Virus record (IMG/VR): IMGVR_UViG_3300037483_000080
Location: 1-43,844 of that record
From: a virus
Taxonomy: Duplodnaviria > Caudoviricetes
Reading direction: 5' to 3' (one strand)
Length of the DNA: 43,844 nucleotides
Program-made: the position numbers and the translations under genes
Shown: one piece after another, positions 299-42,688 of the stretch
How positions within the stretch are numbered: position 1 is the stretch's first letter
Layout of the letters: the number at the start of each line of letters is the position of its first letter
The notes under the pieces: generated by a model
Databases searched by the model: none
Told to the model about the DNA's origin: nothing
Seen by the model: the letters and a program-made list of their open reading frames with translations, nothing else

Positions 299-376
299 AC
301 GCACGGATAGGGTTGCAACCCGAAAAGGCGTAGTCCCCCGCGCCTTCCGTGCGTCGTCGGGGGAATCATGGGGGAC
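299..376 (+). promoter_or_regulatory. Candidate cis-regulatory RNA: three-way junction with anti-SD loop upstream of the glycosyltransferase
   Basis: P1 ACGCACGGA(299-307)/TCCGTGCGT(346-354); P2 GGGT/ACCC (310-321); P3 AGGCG/CGCCT (326-345); loop complementary to CGGGGGA (358-364) and to the SD GGGGGAC (370-376). Confidence 0.6.
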
Positions 377-384
377 ATGACGAG

Positions 385-1572
385 ATGAACATCAACTGGT
401 TTTCAAATGCGCCGTGGGCAGCCACGGGCTACGGCGTGCAAACAAAATTGTTCGCGCCGCGCCTAAAAGAACTGGGCCACGACATTGCGATCACGGCGTT
501 CTATGGCCTAGAAGGATCGGTCATCAACTGGAACGGTATCCAGATTTACCCGCGTTGGGCGCACGGCTACGGCCTGGACATCATGGCGGCGCACGCGAAG
601 CGCCAGAAGGCGGACATCGTTTTAACGCTGCTGGATGCGTGGGTCTTCGATGCAAACTCATTACGCGCGCAGAACGTCAAGTGGGTGCCGTGGTTCATGG
701 TGGATGGTGAGCCTTTGCAGTTGGCGGTGTACAGGCAGATCAAGGAATCGTTTCGTCCGATCTGCTGCTCACTGAACGCGCAACGGGCCTGCAAGTTAGC
801 CGGACTTGACGCGCTCTATGTGCCGCTCGGCACGGATTGCAGCGTGTACAAGCCGCTGGGCGACAAACAGGCTATTCGTGGCATGATGAGGTTTCCAACC
901 GACAAATTCATCGTCGGCATGGTGGCAGCGAACAAAGACCCTGGCGATCGCAAATGCTTCTTTCAGCAGATTGAAGCGTTCGCGCAGTTCCACCGCAAAC
1001 ACCCGGACACATTTCTGTACATGCACACGCAGCATCAGGTACAGCCGGGCGTAGGTTATGCGGCGCTGAACCTGAAAGAGTACGCGGAGTATCATGGACT
1101 TGTCGAAGAAAGTGATTTCGGCTTCTGCGATCAATACTGCTACATCCTCGGCTTCTCGGATCAGCACATGGTCAACACCTACAACGCCTTTGACGTACTC
1201 CTGAACGTATCGCGCGGCGAAGGCTTCGGCGTGCCGATCGTTGAGGCGCAAGCGTGCGGTACGCCCGTCATCATTGGCGACTGGACAGCGATGGAAGATT
1301 TGTGTTTCGCTGGCTGGAAGGTCGGACGCAAAGAGGCAGCGCGCTCGTGGAACGGGCAAGGCTCGTATCAGTTCACGCCTACCGTCGAAGCGATTACCGG
1401 GCGGCTAGAATTGGCCTATCGCACATCTGGCAAAAAATGGCCGGAGGCGGCAGAAGGCGTCAAGGTTTACGATGCCGACTACATCACCGAACATCACTGG
1501 AAGCCAGCGATTGCAGCGCTTCAAGACATGCTCAGCGGGCAGGATACCGAATTGAAGTTGGTGAAGTTCTAA
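385..1572 (+). CDS. GT-B fold glycosyltransferase (GT4 family)
   Basis: N-terminal TGYG motif; C-terminal SRGEGFGVPIVEAQACGTPVI (E-x7-E) motif; ATG 385 with GGGGGA SD. Confidence 0.92.
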   Translation: MNINWFSNAPWAATGYGVQTKLFAPRLKELGHDIAITAFYGLEGSVINWNGIQIYPRWAHGYGLDIMAAHAKRQKADIVLTLLDAWVFDANSLRAQNVKWVPWFMVDGEPLQLAVYRQIKESFRPICCSLNAQRACKLAGLDALYVPLGTDCSVYKPLGDKQAIRGMMRFPTDKFIVGMVAANKDPGDRKCFFQQIEAFAQFHRKHPDTFLYMHTQHQVQPGVGYAALNLKEYAEYHGLVEESDFGFCDQYCYILGFSDQHMVNTYNAFDVLLNVSRGEGFGVPIVEAQACGTPVIIGDWTAMEDLCFAGWKVGRKEAARSWNGQGSYQFTPTVEAITGRLELAYRTSGKKWPEAAEGVKVYDADYITEHHWKPAIAALQDMLSGQDTELKLVKF

Positions 1573-1805
1573 TGAACATGCTAACTGGATTTGTCTCACG
1601 TCGAACCGATGGATTATTCGATTGGTACAAGTTCGATGTAAAGCCACCTTCATCTGGCGATGCTTCCATTGGCTGTAAATTGGCTGGTATTGTACGAGAG
1701 GTACATCCAGCGTGTAACGATAACGGCGGTACACTGGCGATTCTGAATTACCCTCCGGGTACAAATATATGGGTTGAGATAGTCAATGAAAATCCAACTC
1801 CTTAA
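1572..1805 (+). CDS. Hypothetical protein (77 aa) in the modification cassette
   Basis: ATG overlaps the GT4 stop (TAATG); end overlaps the next start. Confidence 0.6.
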   Translation: MNMLTGFVSRRTDGLFDWYKFDVKPPSSGDASIGCKLAGIVREVHPACNDNGGTLAILNYPPGTNIWVEIVNENPTP

Positions 1806-3051
1806 CCCGCCAATCCACCACTACACCGGGCGGCAGTACCGCATGATGCCGCCGATCAACCTGCCGACGATCGCGGCGCTGCTGTCTGCCGCCGGCCACT
1901 ACGCTGAGGTAATCGACCTCGAAGCGTTGGCCGTCACGCCAGAGCGGCTTGAGCATGCGTACAAAGCGCAGCGCGAGTCATGGCCGGACGTGATCGGTAT
2001 CACGAGCATGACGATCACTTCACGCGGTGCAATGGATACCGTGCAAGCGCTGCGCCGTGCTGGCTTCGACGGCAAGATCATCGCGGGCGGCATCTACCCG
2101 ACGGAGAACGCGCAGAAGTGTATCGATGACTGGGGCGTTGATCTCGTTGTTGTCGGTGAGTGCGAGGGCAACGTTGTAGAGATATTCGAGAGGGGTGCGC
2201 CTGGCGTACATCTCGGCCAGCGTATGCCGATCGAGGACATCCCTGCACCCGACTGGCAGCACCACAACCCGCCGATCGGCGATTACAACGGCAACACGCG
2301 CTTGATCAATCCGAAGCCGGGCATCAGCATGTGGTCACGCGGGTGCCCGTTCCAGTGCGTGTTCTGTAGTGACAATCTCTTCAATGGGCAGCCGATCCGC
2401 TATCGCCCGCCGGCGCTCATTGAGCAAGAGATGCGCGAACTCAAGCGGCGCGGCTGCCTGAATTGCTATGTGTACGACGATGAGCTTGTCGGCACGAAGT
2501 TGCCGCATGGCTGGATCGAGGACATCGCCGATCGCATCGAAGACTTGCATTTGCCGTACATCACGCAGGGGCACTGCAACCGCAACACCATCACGCCTGA
2601 ATCAATGAGCCACGTCAAGCGCAGCGGTTGCAGGGTGATCTTTTGGGGCCTGGAATCGTTCAGCGAAAACGTGCTCCTGGCGATCAAGAAACGGATCAAA
2701 GAAGTGGACATCTGGCACACGCTCAAGGTGTCGCACGAAGCCGGGATCGAGAACGCCGTATTCACGATGGTGGGCAACTACAAAGAGACTGTAGCCGATT
2801 TGGAGCACACCTACAACTGCTTGAAGAAAGCGCACGCCGATGGCCTGATCCAATACCGGCAAACAACCGTCTGCACAGGGATGCCTGGGACACCGCTTGA
2901 GAAGATCATGAAGGCTGAGGGCTGGTGGACAGAGCCGCCGGAGTACGGGCCGCAGATGGCGCAAGTCTACAGCCCGACGCCGTGGTTGACGATGCAAGAG
3001 ATCATGTACTGGGCGAACAAATTTCAGGAAACGTGTCCGGGGGTGCCATGA
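1786..3051 (+). CDS. Cobalamin-binding radical SAM enzyme (class B methyltransferase-like)
   Basis: B12-binding domain (PPINLPTIAALL...PDVIGIT...IIAGGIYPT...VVVGECE), then SRGCPFQCVFC (CxxxCxxC), YDDE and GLES motifs. Confidence 0.92.
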   Translation: MKIQLLNPPIHHYTGRQYRMMPPINLPTIAALLSAAGHYAEVIDLEALAVTPERLEHAYKAQRESWPDVIGITSMTITSRGAMDTVQALRRAGFDGKIIAGGIYPTENAQKCIDDWGVDLVVVGECEGNVVEIFERGAPGVHLGQRMPIEDIPAPDWQHHNPPIGDYNGNTRLINPKPGISMWSRGCPFQCVFCSDNLFNGQPIRYRPPALIEQEMRELKRRGCLNCYVYDDELVGTKLPHGWIEDIADRIEDLHLPYITQGHCNRNTITPESMSHVKRSGCRVIFWGLESFSENVLLAIKKRIKEVDIWHTLKVSHEAGIENAVFTMVGNYKETVADLEHTYNCLKKAHADGLIQYRQTTVCTGMPGTPLEKIMKAEGWWTEPPEYGPQMAQVYSPTPWLTMQEIMYWANKFQETCPGVP

Positions 3052-3281
3052 ATAAAGCAACGAAGGTAAGGCAGGCTGAAGTAAAAACTGAAGCGGCGGT
3101 AGAAGAAGTAGAAACTCGCGGCAACACCGCAATCATGCGAGTAGTCACGCCGTACACCGACGACATGATGACGGTACTCGAAGAACGCCTCGACGCTCAA
3201 TTTGATGATGGCTTCAAAGTTGCCGCGTGTGTTCCGTACGGCGTCGATCGCATGGTCGTCATTTTGCAGAAGGCCGCATGA
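3048..3281 (+). CDS. Hypothetical protein (77 aa)
   Basis: ATGA overlap with the upstream stop; plausible composition. Confidence 0.65.
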   Translation: MNKATKVRQAEVKTEAAVEEVETRGNTAIMRVVTPYTDDMMTVLEERLDAQFDDGFKVAACVPYGVDRMVVILQKAA

Positions 3282-3463
3282 GTAATAAAAGTGCGCCTTT
3301 CGGCGCACTGCTGGATAACATCCTATCAGATATTCAATCGGGCGCTATATCATTCGCCACGGATTTACGGGTCGCTCGGCCTCTGACGCCACTTAATCGG
3401 AGTGTGATGTCTAGCGATAAATCAATCCAGCGAATATATTATAACACGGTTTGTCAAGCATGA
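3278..3463 (+). CDS. Possible 61-aa translational-coupling ORF antisense to the candidate ncRNA
   Basis: ATGA overlaps at both ends; the peptide is largely the translation of terminator and promoter DNA. Confidence 0.35.
   Translation: MSNKSAPFGALLDNILSDIQSGAISFATDLRVARPLTPLNRSVMSSDKSIQRIYYNTVCQA
3284..3309 (-). terminator. Intrinsic terminator
   Basis: Minus strand AGTGCGCC-GAAA-GGCGCACT followed by TTTATT. Confidence 0.8.
3284..3431 (-). ncRNA. Candidate ~148-nt structured ncRNA (unrecognised family)
   Basis: Extended -10 just upstream; 5' GCUGGAU pairs with AUCCAGC directly before an intrinsic terminator; nested internal helices; no useful minus-strand ORF. Confidence 0.7.
3438..3446 (-). 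promoter_or_regulatory. Extended -10 promoter TGTTATAAT
   Basis: Predicted +1 (G3431) is 7 nt downstream and is the first base of the closing stem. Confidence 0.6.
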
Positions 3464-4113
3464 ACAAAGCGATCGTTACATTCGGCGTAGGACCACACCG
3501 CGAATACCTTAGCATCGCGCGCCCATCGTTTCAGGCGTTCGCTAAGCGGCACGGCTACGACTATTTTGAAGCCGATCAAATCGGGAGGCTGCGCCCGCCG
3601 GCCTGGTACAAGGTGAAGTGCTTGATCGATCTGCTTAAGCAGTGTGACCTGGCGGCATTCTTCGGCTGCGATCTCGTCGTCGTTGACGGGCGCGATGACT
3701 TTCCGCTACCTGATACCGATTGGTGGCAGGCTATGGTCACGCACCACACGCAATGTGGTGACGTTCCGAATGACGACATGTGGATTTGCAAGCGTGACAT
3801 GCTGCCGTGGCTTGAGCGTGTGTGGGCGCTTGGTGGCAAGTACCTAAATCATGGGTGGTGGGAGCAGGCTGCGCTCATGGAGTTGATGGCCTACGACCCG
3901 GCGATTAATAATTTTCCGACGCATTGCAATGACATCTGCAACGAACTCTACCAGCATACGCTCTGGTTGCCGAATGAGTGGAACGTGCATTGCTGGGACA
4001 AGCCGCAGCCGTCGCATACGCGCATTCAGCACGCGACGATGTGGCCGGACAGGGCGTCGATTATGAGGCAGTGGGCGCACGAAGCTGAGGAGTGGATCGG
4101 TGAGATACGTTGA
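3460..4113 (+). CDS. GT-A glycosyltransferase, GT34 (GMA12/MNN10)-like
   Basis: FAKRHGYDY, PAWYKV, WWEQAAL and LPNEWN motifs; usual DxD appears as GCD. Confidence 0.75.
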   Translation: MNKAIVTFGVGPHREYLSIARPSFQAFAKRHGYDYFEADQIGRLRPPAWYKVKCLIDLLKQCDLAAFFGCDLVVVDGRDDFPLPDTDWWQAMVTHHTQCGDVPNDDMWICKRDMLPWLERVWALGGKYLNHGWWEQAALMELMAYDPAINNFPTHCNDICNELYQHTLWLPNEWNVHCWDKPQPSHTRIQHATMWPDRASIMRQWAHEAEEWIGEIR

Positions 4114-6125: not shown

Positions 6126-6493
6126 TGAGCAAGATTAAACTTGACACGACGAAATTGGATCAACTTCTGGCTTCGATACCCGGCGATGTAGATGAGGTTG
6201 TCGGAAAAGCGGCGATGCTGATCGAGCAACAGGCGAGGTTGCAAGTTAATAGTTGGCCCAGGGCAAAGATGTATGTACGCACTGGCGCGCTGGCAAATGG
6301 CATCATGGCAGAACGGATAAAGCGCGGTTTTTGGTCTGTGCATGATAGCGTAGAGTACGGCGTATTTTGGGAACTTGGTCATCACAATATCTTTTTGCGC
6401 CGCTATGTGCGCAGGCCGTTTTTCACACCCGCGATCATGTACGTGGGTTCAAAGTTTGCGCAGATATTAGCGCAAGGATTATTCAATGAGTAG
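6125..6493 (+). CDS. HK97 gp10-like tail completion protein
   Basis: VRTGALANGI, VEYGVFWELG and RPFFTPA motifs. Confidence 0.8.
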   Translation: MSKIKLDTTKLDQLLASIPGDVDEVVGKAAMLIEQQARLQVNSWPRAKMYVRTGALANGIMAERIKRGFWSVHDSVEYGVFWELGHHNIFLRRYVRRPFFTPAIMYVGSKFAQILAQGLFNE

Positions 6494-6707
6494 GCCAAAT
6501 CTATACGCTATCGAAACTCGACCAGGAAAAACGCGCATTTTTTCCGTTAGCCAAATCGTTGTAGAGGCTGGTTTGACATCAAGGCGGGCGGCGCGCAGAC
6601 TCATTAATCGCGCAGTAAAATCAGGTGAAGTAAAACGGCTGAGGCGCAGGAACGGGCACGGCGGGACAATGATACCAAAAGAGAACACATCGAATGAGCG
6701 CATTTAA
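6486..6707 (+). CDS. Small basic protein, S4-like or winged-helix nucleic-acid-binding domain
   Basis: IVVEAGLTSRRAARRLI resembles the S4 motif; overlaps both neighbours. Confidence 0.5.
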   Translation: MSRPNLYAIETRPGKTRIFSVSQIVVEAGLTSRRAARRLINRAVKSGEVKRLRRRNGHGGTMIPKENTSNERI

Positions 6708-41738: not shown

Positions 41739-42073
41739 GTTATCAATGCACGCGGATTCATGACAATAGCGGAACGCAGTGTAATGACTGCGGTTGTATT
41801 CAGATCAACGCCGCCCTTTGCCCGCGCTGTGGCGCTACGATGAGTATCAGCGATGTTTTTGGACACGAGAAAGTATGCCCGGCAGAGCAACGTGATACCT
41901 GTTCTGCGACGCTTACCGTCAGCGCAGAGTGGCCCGACTTCCTGACGGCGGTTCAGGCCGCACGGCGCGAATACCGCGCCCATCACGTAGAGCGGATCGC
42001 CGTTGTCGATCTCGCGAATCTCACAATCGGGCGCGTGATTGCGTTTGAGAAGCATGTTGACACCGTAAAATAA
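41735..42073 (+). CDS. Cys-rich hypothetical protein
   Basis: CNDC, CPRC; ATGA overlap. Confidence 0.55.
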   Translation: MSYQCTRIHDNSGTQCNDCGCIQINAALCPRCGATMSISDVFGHEKVCPAEQRDTCSATLTVSAEWPDFLTAVQAARREYRAHHVERIAVVDLANLTIGRVIAFEKHVDTVK

Positions 42074-42084
42074 AGTCGTATACT
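42057..42084 (+). promoter_or_regulatory. Promoter TTGACA-16-TATACT for the capsid operon
   Basis: Near consensus. Confidence 0.72.
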
Positions 42085-42123
42085 AGAAGCACAACTAAAT
42101 AACGTACACGCAACGCGAGCGAC

Positions 42124-42167
42124 AGGCGCGGGAATCCAGAGACAGGAATCCCAGCGCCTTTTTATTT
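42124..42167 (+). terminator. Terminator-like hairpin in the scaffold gene leader
   Basis: AGGCGC-GGGA..TCCC-A-GCGCCT followed by TTTTATTT. Confidence 0.6.
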
Positions 42168-42184
42168 ACCCAGGAGTAATCGCA

Positions 42185-42688
42185 ATGACGACCGAGACGG
42201 TCACAGCAGAGGTGGTCGAGACGACCACGGCAACCGAAACGCAGACGCAACCGGCGGGCAAGACGCCAGCCGAATTGCAAGCGGAGTTAGCGCGAGTTGA
42301 AGCGGCGTTGAAAGACGCCAACAAAGAAGCGGCCAGCCGCCGCAAGAAACTTGAAGAGTTCGAGAAGGCTGAGCAAGCGCGCAAAGACGCTGAGTTGTCC
42401 GAGACGGAACGACTCAAGAAAGAATTGCAGAGCGCCCAGTCAAAACTTGAAGCGGCTCAACGCACGGAACTACAGCGCAGCGTGTCAGACGAAGTTGGTT
42501 TACCCGCAGTGTTCGCCGCCAGGATTCAGGGCGCGGATCGTGACGCGATGTTAGCGGATGCCAAGGCGATACTGGCTGTATTGCCGAAGGGCACCACGTT
42601 AGCGCCGAAGATCGGGCCGACGAATCCAGGCGCGGCCACGAAGGGCGAAACCGACGACGAAAAGCGCAGGCGCTTAGGGCTACGATAG
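42185..42688 (+). CDS. Capsid scaffolding protein
   Basis: ANKEAASRRKKL, ELSETERL and GLPAVFAARIQG motifs; upstream of the MCP. Confidence 0.85.
   Translation: MTTETVTAEVVETTTATETQTQPAGKTPAELQAELARVEAALKDANKEAASRRKKLEEFEKAEQARKDAELSETERLKKELQSAQSKLEAAQRTELQRSVSDEVGLPAVFAARIQGADRDAMLADAKAILAVLPKGTTLAPKIGPTNPGAATKGETDDEKRRRLGLR

What the first reader, a model, noticed from the sequence alone, without database searches (positions are those of the whole stretch)
3276..3463. Self-contained antisense ncRNA unit hidden inside the modification operon
Seen: minus-strand TGTTATAAT puts +1 at G3431, the first base of GCUGGAU, which pairs with AUCCAGC directly before a GAAA-loop terminator. Internal helices: CGCUA/UAGCG, AUCA/UGAU, CACU/AGUG, CGUCA/UGGCG, AAUAUCU/GGAUGUU. 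There is a possible pseudoknot GAUUUA/UAAAUC and two CCGAUU motifs. The unit is flanked by GCATGA direct repeats (3276-3281, 3458-3463). Inference: an independently transcribed ~148-nt RNA acquired as a moron. It could be a protein sponge, an anti-defence RNA or an antisense regulator of the cassette.
Basis: partly seen in the sequence, partly recalled or inferred. Interest (0 to 1): 0.8.

Follow-up and report, generated by a model that had tools for sequence, protein, structure and literature searches.

The report
Swappable small-RNA cassette in phage operon
An uncultured phage carries, inserted backwards between two late genes that touch in its relatives, a promoter-to-terminator unit that likely makes a 148-base folded RNA; a close relative has the same promoter in front of a different RNA-like sequence, both inserts keep a reading frame open that likely carries ribosomes to the next gene, and the RNA likely acts on the host.

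Summary
The core observation holds. A minus-strand extended -10 promoter, a 7-bp stem joining the predicted +1 to the base before the terminator (11 of 20,000 shuffles) and a strong terminator fill the gap exactly. The GCATGA 'repeats' are the stop/start overlaps of a 61-codon open frame on the plus strand.

Relatives decide most of it. Of 6 syntenic loci, 4 are empty, 1 holds an unrelated small ORF, and 1 (L100) holds the same promoter (20 of 22 bases) before a different 145-nt folded, U-tailed sequence, again over an open ATGA-to-ATGA frame. Neither peptide has a homologue, and the next gene lacks a ribosome-binding site. The promoter layout also precedes tRNAs and mRNAs in Chloroflexota genomes.

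Best reading: an RNA-only moron at a cargo hotspot, made early by host polymerase and acting in trans, with the open frame as a ribosome relay. No homologue, covariation, target or transcript was found, so the function is inferred; cis-antisense control is the main rival.

The parts
3452..3457 (-). TTGACA hexamer only 8 nt upstream of the -10 box (not the usual 16-18 nt)
   Evidence: identical in L100; same layout at window 28005 and 63 times in 49 of 191 Chloroflexota-class genomes
3438..3446 (-). extended -10 box TGnTATAAT; predicted +1 at G3431
   Evidence: only such site on the minus strand; conserved in L100
3284..3431 (-). predicted 148-nt small RNA
   Evidence: no Rfam match at gathering score, best E 0.75 over the terminator end
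3425..3431 (-). 5' strand of the closing stem
   Evidence: pair probabilities 0.80-1.0; 11 of 20,000 shuffles
3310..3316 (-). 3' strand of the closing stem, stacked on the terminator
3362..3423 (-). predicted long arm (6-bp helix, 4-nt 3' bulge, 5-bp helix, weak apical part); not significant by itself
   Evidence: z -0.43, 88 of 300 shuffles
3317..3361 (-). two predicted short arms (3361-3339 and 3334-3317)
   Evidence: minimum-energy fold and pair probabilities
3282..3309 (-). intrinsic terminator: 8-bp GAAA hairpin 3309-3290 plus U tract ending beside the upstream stop codon
3278..3463 (+). 61-codon open frame overlapping the upstream stop and the downstream start (ATGA at both ends); read as a ribosome relay
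   Evidence: open in 284 of 5,000 shuffles; no homologue; codon score -0.143
3048..3281 (+). 77-aa orphan ORF inserted at the same junction (DUF4177/DUF1737-like lead only)
   Evidence: absent from L002, L100, L101, L102, L126, L127; no homologue; atlas scores under 0.9
3048..3470 (+). whole insert relative to the empty site (3048-3459), bounded by an 11-base near repeat (10 of 11 identical) at 3048-3058 and 3460-3470
1786..3051 (+). upstream flank: B12-binding radical SAM gene
   Evidence: Pfam PF02310 and PF04055
3460..4113 (+). downstream flank: 217-aa gene without a Shine-Dalgarno signal; glycosyltransferase-like by my recall of the sequence pattern, no Pfam or PHROG hit

Best explanation
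This is an optional insert in a phage late operon that likely encodes a stand-alone small RNA, predicted to be made by host RNA polymerase from its own promoter and likely to act in trans on a host protein or RNA, while the open frame on the other strand likely only relays ribosomes to the next gene. SHOWN: the insert is missing in 4 of 6 syntenic relatives; a second, unrelated sequence sits behind the same promoter at the same junction in L100; both inserts have promoter, 5' helix at +1 and U-tailed hairpin on the minus strand and a stop-free ATGA-to-ATGA frame on the plus strand; the two peptides differ and have no homologues; the downstream gene has no ribosome-binding site. INFERRED: (1) the housekeeping sigma factor fires the extended -10 promoter from the start of infection, before the late operon is on; (2) pairing of +1 into a 7-bp helix plus the terminator makes the RNA stable; (3) the RNA body is interchangeable cargo, like the small protein genes at the same junction, and works as a decoy or base-pairing RNA against a host factor; (4) only inserts that leave the plus frame open survive, because the downstream gene depends on translational coupling.
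For: Empty sites: L002, L101, L126, L127 (radical SAM 87-88% aa identity in L126/L127). Other cargo: small Cys/His ORF in L102. L100: 179-bp insert; 145-nt RNA z -3.55 (1 of 300), opposite strand z 0.19 (161 of 300); 6-bp loop-bulge pseudoknot possible. Promoter stretch 20 of 22 identical against 69 of 103 at four-fold sites (binomial p 0.010, stretch chosen after seeing it); both differences change amino acids and spare the boxes. The bodies are not drifted copies: alignment score 46 against 45 +/- 7 for shuffles and 104-141 expected at 30-40% drift (0 of 300 as low). +1 buried in a 7-bp helix in both (180 and 103 of 5,000 shuffles). Frames open in 284 and 444 of 5,000 shuffles, in the one phase of three that couples, while the other five frames hold 3-7 and 2-5 stops. 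Anti-SD pairing at the downstream start -2.9 and -3.7 kcal/mol against -6.8 to -12.2 at four other starts. Promoter layout: 63 matches in 49 of 191 genomes against 1 reversed control; 25 of 30 fetched loci have a same-sense SD-led ORF within 250 nt against 11 of 30 on the other side; 3 of 30 have a same-sense tRNA downstream. Precedent: convergent small-RNA genes at moron sites of lambdoid late regions act in trans (PMC4104026, passages).
Against: No homologue of either RNA body, so no covariation. The core fold is not significant in the window (z -1.2 to -1.3) and marginal in L100 (z -1.75, 16 of 300). No target was found in the phage genome (best duplexes within the range of 8 shuffles per segment) and the host genome is unknown. 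Only two RNA-type inserts are known, and their last 8 or so codons are shared, so the two open frames are not fully independent. L102 breaks the coupling rule (stop 16 nt before the start), though that contig has several apparent frameshift errors. The L100 terminator has a long structured loop and is missed by the simple scan. A probably real HTH moron scores almost as low in codon usage (-0.104) as the relay frame. The reversed-pattern control does not correct for how common TGnTATAAT promoters are.
Confidence: 0.45

Rival explanations
1. Cis-antisense damper of the late cassette. The RNA pairs with the relay frame in the late mRNA, blocks ribosome passage or invites RNase III, and so lowers or delays the coupled downstream genes; head-on transcription may add to this. 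The body sequence is free because it always matches its own target.
For: Full complementarity to a frame on which the SD-less downstream gene seems to depend; explains a kept promoter with an unconstrained body; precedents: lambda OOP (pO-oop-tO, RNase III cleavage suggested; PMC5869508 passages) and BTP1 STnc6030 antisense to late genes (PMC7067206 passages).
Against: The RNA does not reach the downstream start (5' end 29 nt away) nor the upstream gene, so it targets only the DNA it brought; 4 of 6 relatives do without it; drift alone does not explain the replaced body; both RNAs hide their 5' ends in helices; no integrase or repressor family among 81 ORF scans, so a lysogen immunity role has no support.
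Confidence: 0.25
2. Captured foreign DNA or a small selfish element with no benefit to the phage: promoter-terminator fragments recombine in at ATGA microhomology and persist if the frame stays open.
For: Lower GC (46% against 56%); 11-base near repeat around the 412-bp insert; RecT-like gene in the genome, weak hit; weak core fold.
Against: One copy only; no transposase family among 81 ORF scans; no terminal inverted repeat by eye; promoter more conserved than neutral sites; two different bodies each fill the gap exactly from promoter to U tract.
Confidence: 0.17
3. The 61-aa ORF is a real small protein moron, and the minus-strand signals are by-products or an antitoxin-like check on it (type I toxin-antitoxin style).
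For: ATGA overlaps at both ends like the other genes of the operon; other small protein morons in this operon; called as a gene in the protein collection.
Against: No homologue for either peptide; codon score below all 88 in-frame blocks; a strong hairpin right after the start codon; every difference in the shared last codons is non-synonymous; neither peptide shows a membrane-spanning stretch by eye.
Confidence: 0.1

Closest known systems
Prophage anti-sRNAs AgvB and AsxR of enterohaemorrhagic E. coli (PMC4104026, passages read)
   Same: Small-RNA genes lying convergent at a moron insertion site of a phage late region; related cassettes with an exchangeable part.
   Different: Those are 51-60 nt with a conserved 3' 42 nt and a variable 5' end, and bind Hfq. 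Here 145-148 nt; only the promoter and first bases are shared, body and terminator differ; the cassette sits inside a coupled operon over an open frame.
Phage morons (definition recalled; Juhala et al. 2000 seen only as a citation in PMC4104026)
   Same: Insert between two genes adjacent in relatives, own promoter and terminator, lower GC.
   Different: The cargo appears to be an RNA; the plus-strand frame looks like a relay, not the product.
Lambda OOP RNA (PMC5869508, passages)
   Same: Compact promoter-RNA-terminator unit antisense to a phage mRNA at a gene junction.
   Different: OOP overlaps 52 bases of cII; this RNA overlaps only its own insert, is optional among close relatives and has a swapped counterpart.
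STnc6030 of Salmonella prophage BTP1 (PMC7067206, passages)
   Same: Antisense RNA within late structural genes.
   Different: 786 nt, overlaps real genes, works in a lysogen; no lysogeny genes were found here.

Membership tests
Any Rfam 15 family | match at the family's gathering score | tested here: not met
   none in the element; best E 0.75; none to E 10 for the L100 insert
Phage moron | inserted between two genes that are adjacent in relatives | tested here: met
   4 of 6 syntenic loci empty
Phage moron | own sigma-70-type promoter and intrinsic terminator | tested here: met
   sequence level only; activity untested
Phage moron | protein-coding cargo under that promoter | tested here: not met
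   minus-strand frames hold 3-5 stops; no ORF of 25 aa or more within the unit on that strand
AgvB/AsxR anti-sRNAs | 51-60 nt, conserved 3' region and variable 5' end | tested here: not met
   145-148 nt; sharing is at the promoter end only
AgvB/AsxR anti-sRNAs | convergent gene at a moron site of the late region | tested here: met
AgvB/AsxR anti-sRNAs | Hfq binding and pairing with a host sRNA | not testable with these tools
   host unknown, no RNA data
OOP-type cis-antisense RNA | overlap with the coding or initiation region of the regulated gene | tested here: inconclusive
   overlaps only the relay frame 3278-3463; stops 29 nt short of the downstream start
OOP-type cis-antisense RNA | duplex-dependent loss of target mRNA or protein | not testable with these tools
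   needs experiment
Non-autonomous transposon (MITE/IS derivative) | several copies or copies at other sites | tested here: not met
   one copy in the record; none in 13 related virus records
Non-autonomous transposon (MITE/IS derivative) | target-site duplication | tested here: inconclusive
   GCATGA is explained by ATGA overlaps; the empty site has a different base pair before ATGA
Type I toxin-antitoxin locus | conserved small hydrophobic toxin opposite the RNA | tested here: not met
   peptides differ and have no homologues; hydrophobicity judged by eye only

The most novel reading that the evidence does not exclude
These phages keep a hypervariable slot for interchangeable structured RNA genes, an RNA counterpart of anti-defence protein hotspots: one shared host-type promoter drives unrelated folded RNAs (one with a pseudoknot) that each neutralise a different host factor, and every insert must carry a junk open frame that bridges ribosomes across it so that the coupled late operon survives.
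Probability: 0.25. Interest if true: 0.8.

Novelty: new variant of a known kind. Interest (0 to 1): 0.52.

Why it matters
If true, small orphan ORFs in coupled phage operons can be shadows of RNA genes on the other strand, and gene callers would hide them. It suggests a simple screen (ATGA-to-ATGA orphan frame, opposite promoter at one end, terminator at the other, empty site in relatives) for phage RNAs that covariation searches miss because they have no homologues. Two unrelated RNAs behind one promoter also give a ready pair for asking whether phages swap RNA cargo as they swap counter-defence proteins.

Tried and rejected
Homologue searches, all without a full-length hit: GenBank phages and plasmids by blastn (only short matches at E 7-8); pattern scans of viral contigs (72 loci, all chance on inspection: 10 loci, all chance: 0; 1, unrelated); one pattern each in metagenome and genome collections (0); 13 related virus records and 5 genomes holding related loci; 401-genome phylum and class draws around a Chloroflexota genome for each RNA (2, 9, 4 and 0 short hits, near the chance count; one, L149, was the promoter alone and led); single-sequence covariance models over 40 sources and 150 genomes (1 hit at E 0.02, judged chance). 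These models give chance hits at E 0.02 in coding DNA, so they are weak. A shared helix-bulge-helix domain between the two RNAs looked tempting (7.3 bits, E 0.15) but is not significant (197 of 2,000 shuffles; no reciprocal hit). Self-dimerisation is at chance level. tRNA/tmRNA: none. Ribozyme and riboswitch resemblances (twister, HDV-like, hammerhead, glmS, c-di-GMP) were considered from memory and dropped: core residues or topology are missing and Rfam found none. Expression: no RNA holder listed; the one DNA run may be the source of this record and shows no variant without the insert. Whether that run holds the L100-type insert is left open. The exhaustive profile search of the 61-aa peptide was queued and had not returned. 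The viral structured-RNA catalogue PMC10690425 gave no hit for three 12-14-base motifs, each in DNA and RNA letters, but 3 of its 6 held files were not searched and 3 more are unreadable here, so overlap with it is not excluded. Paper searches listed nothing describing this arrangement (listings and abstract starts only).

Full report
SETTING. The window is a whole 43.8-kb virus record with direct terminal repeats, held by one sediment-metagenome run that may be its source. Terminase, SPP1-type portal, capsid, tail completion and tape-measure genes mark a siphovirus. The element lies in the late operon, in a block of a GT4 glycosyltransferase, two radical SAM genes and a 217-aa gene, between the capsid gene and the head-tail genes. 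That position suggests virion rather than DNA modification (inference; capsid glycosylation by phage glycosyltransferases is described in PMC11256854, passages). The host is not established: capsid relatives lie in 2 Chloroflexota, 1 Paceibacterota and 1 Caldisericales genome at 46% and on two contigs (39.9 and 13.9 kb) of a Lysobacterales-labelled genome at 78-81%. No integrase or repressor family was found in 81 ORF scans.

OBSERVATION. The motifs are all present. Three features exceed chance: the only minus-strand TGnTATAAT in the record, a 7-bp stem from the predicted +1 to the base before the terminator (11 of 20,000 shuffles), and an 8-bp terminator hairpin whose U tract ends beside the upstream stop codon. 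The GCATGA pair marks the two ATGA overlaps of an open frame, 3278-3463. No Rfam family matches.

RELATIVES. Six loci carry the same radical SAM gene followed by the same downstream gene. In L002, L101, L126 and L127 the two genes overlap directly by ATGA, so the whole stretch 3048-3459, a 77-aa orphan ORF plus the element, is an insert; its borders are an 11-base near repeat. L102 holds an unrelated 39-aa Cys/His ORF. L100, the closest (88% aa downstream, 64 of 64 aa upstream), holds a different 179-bp insert with the same design. The promoter abuts the downstream start codon and matches at 20 of 22 bases, against 69 of 103 at four-fold sites (p 0.010, stretch chosen after seeing it). A 145-nt sequence follows that folds on the minus strand only (z -3.55 against 0.19), begins with a 7-bp helix at +1, can form a 6-bp pseudoknot and ends in a hairpin with a U tract; the simple terminator scan misses that hairpin because of its long loop. 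The two RNA bodies align no better than shuffles and far worse than neutral drift predicts, so one body replaced the other. A possible shared domain was not significant.

THE OPEN FRAME. Both inserts are stop-free from ATGA to ATGA (284 and 444 of 5,000 shuffles, and in the coupling phase), while their other five frames are closed. The peptides differ, have no homologues, and in the shared end every change is non-synonymous while the promoter boxes are intact. The downstream start has no Shine-Dalgarno signal in either. I read the frame as a relay that keeps translational coupling. Against this: the shared last codons make the two cases partly dependent, L102 lacks the overlap (its contig shows frameshift errors), and codon usage does not separate the frame from another small moron.

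THE PROMOTER. TTGACA sits only 8 nt before TATAAT. This layout recurs at window 28005 and, with the TG motif, 63 times in 49 of 191 genomes of a Chloroflexota class against 1 reversed control. It is a minor class: 1 of 150 listed and 0 of 76 promoter-like pairs. Of 30 fetched loci, 25 have a same-sense SD-led ORF within 250 nt (11 on the other side) and 3 a same-sense tRNA; none is followed by a relative of either RNA. It therefore behaves as an ordinary oriented host promoter, which supports the strand call and hints at a Chloroflexota host; other phyla were not sampled in depth.

MECHANISM. Most likely (0.45): an RNA-only moron, made early by host polymerase, stabilised by its paired ends, acting in trans on a host factor, at a junction that also takes small protein cargo. 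I put the chance that it is a transcribed non-coding gene at all at about 0.75. The main rival (0.25) is cis-antisense damping through the relay frame, as for lambda OOP (PMC5869508, passages) or STnc6030 (PMC7067206, passages); the two modes can coexist. Neutral or selfish capture (0.17) and a real small protein (0.10) remain. No target was found in the phage genome, no homologue allowed a covariation test, and there are no RNA data.

NOVELTY. Small-RNA genes at phage moron sites are known (PMC4104026, passages), so the kind is known. This element fails the length and conservation pattern of those anti-sRNAs and matches no Rfam family. The swap of unrelated folded bodies behind one promoter and the relay frame were not found in five paper searches; unsearched supplements of PMC10690425 may bear on this. 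An earlier unchecked note of this scan describes antisense small-RNA genes in another phage's late operon; it is a parallel, not support. Verdict: new variant of a known kind, interest 0.52.

Noticed in passing
window 300-363 (+); L126 11292-11357; L127 4243-4308; L128 10669-10745: An int-alpA RNA motif (Rfam RF02996) lies between the gene after the capsid gene and the GT4 start: above gathering score in the window and in 3 of 11 relatives scanned, with similar hairpins by eye in L091, L092, L093, L129, L130, L131. A C-rich loop faces a downstream G-rich ribosome-binding site, suggesting cis control of the glycosylation block.
   Followed up: partly
window 1572-1805 and 6486-6707 (+): Two more small morons in the same operon (orphan 77 aa; HTH-like 73 aa), absent from L126 and L127.
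   Followed up: partly
window 28005-27986 (-); L152-L181: A promoter layout with TTGACA only 8 nt before TATAAT; it recurs in Chloroflexota genomes, is kept at orthologous loci and precedes tRNA-Sec and tRNA-Val genes. The role of the hexamer is unexplained.
   Followed up: partly
L102 286-421: A 39-aa Cys/His (zinc-finger-like) ORF fills the same junction.
   Followed up: no
L155-L160, just after the promoter: A conserved leader with a GC-rich hairpin and a palindromic 16-base site precedes the same methyltransferase-like gene in six Chloroflexota loci; the palindrome resembles a parS site by my recall.
   Followed up: no
window 42057-42185 (+); L126 9369; L127 2311: A promoter-like site and a hairpin-rich leader precede the scaffold gene in the window and in both close relatives.
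   Followed up: no
window 3132-3116 (-): A second, weaker terminator-like hairpin downstream of the RNA, inside the 77-aa ORF; could catch read-through or be chance.
   Followed up: no
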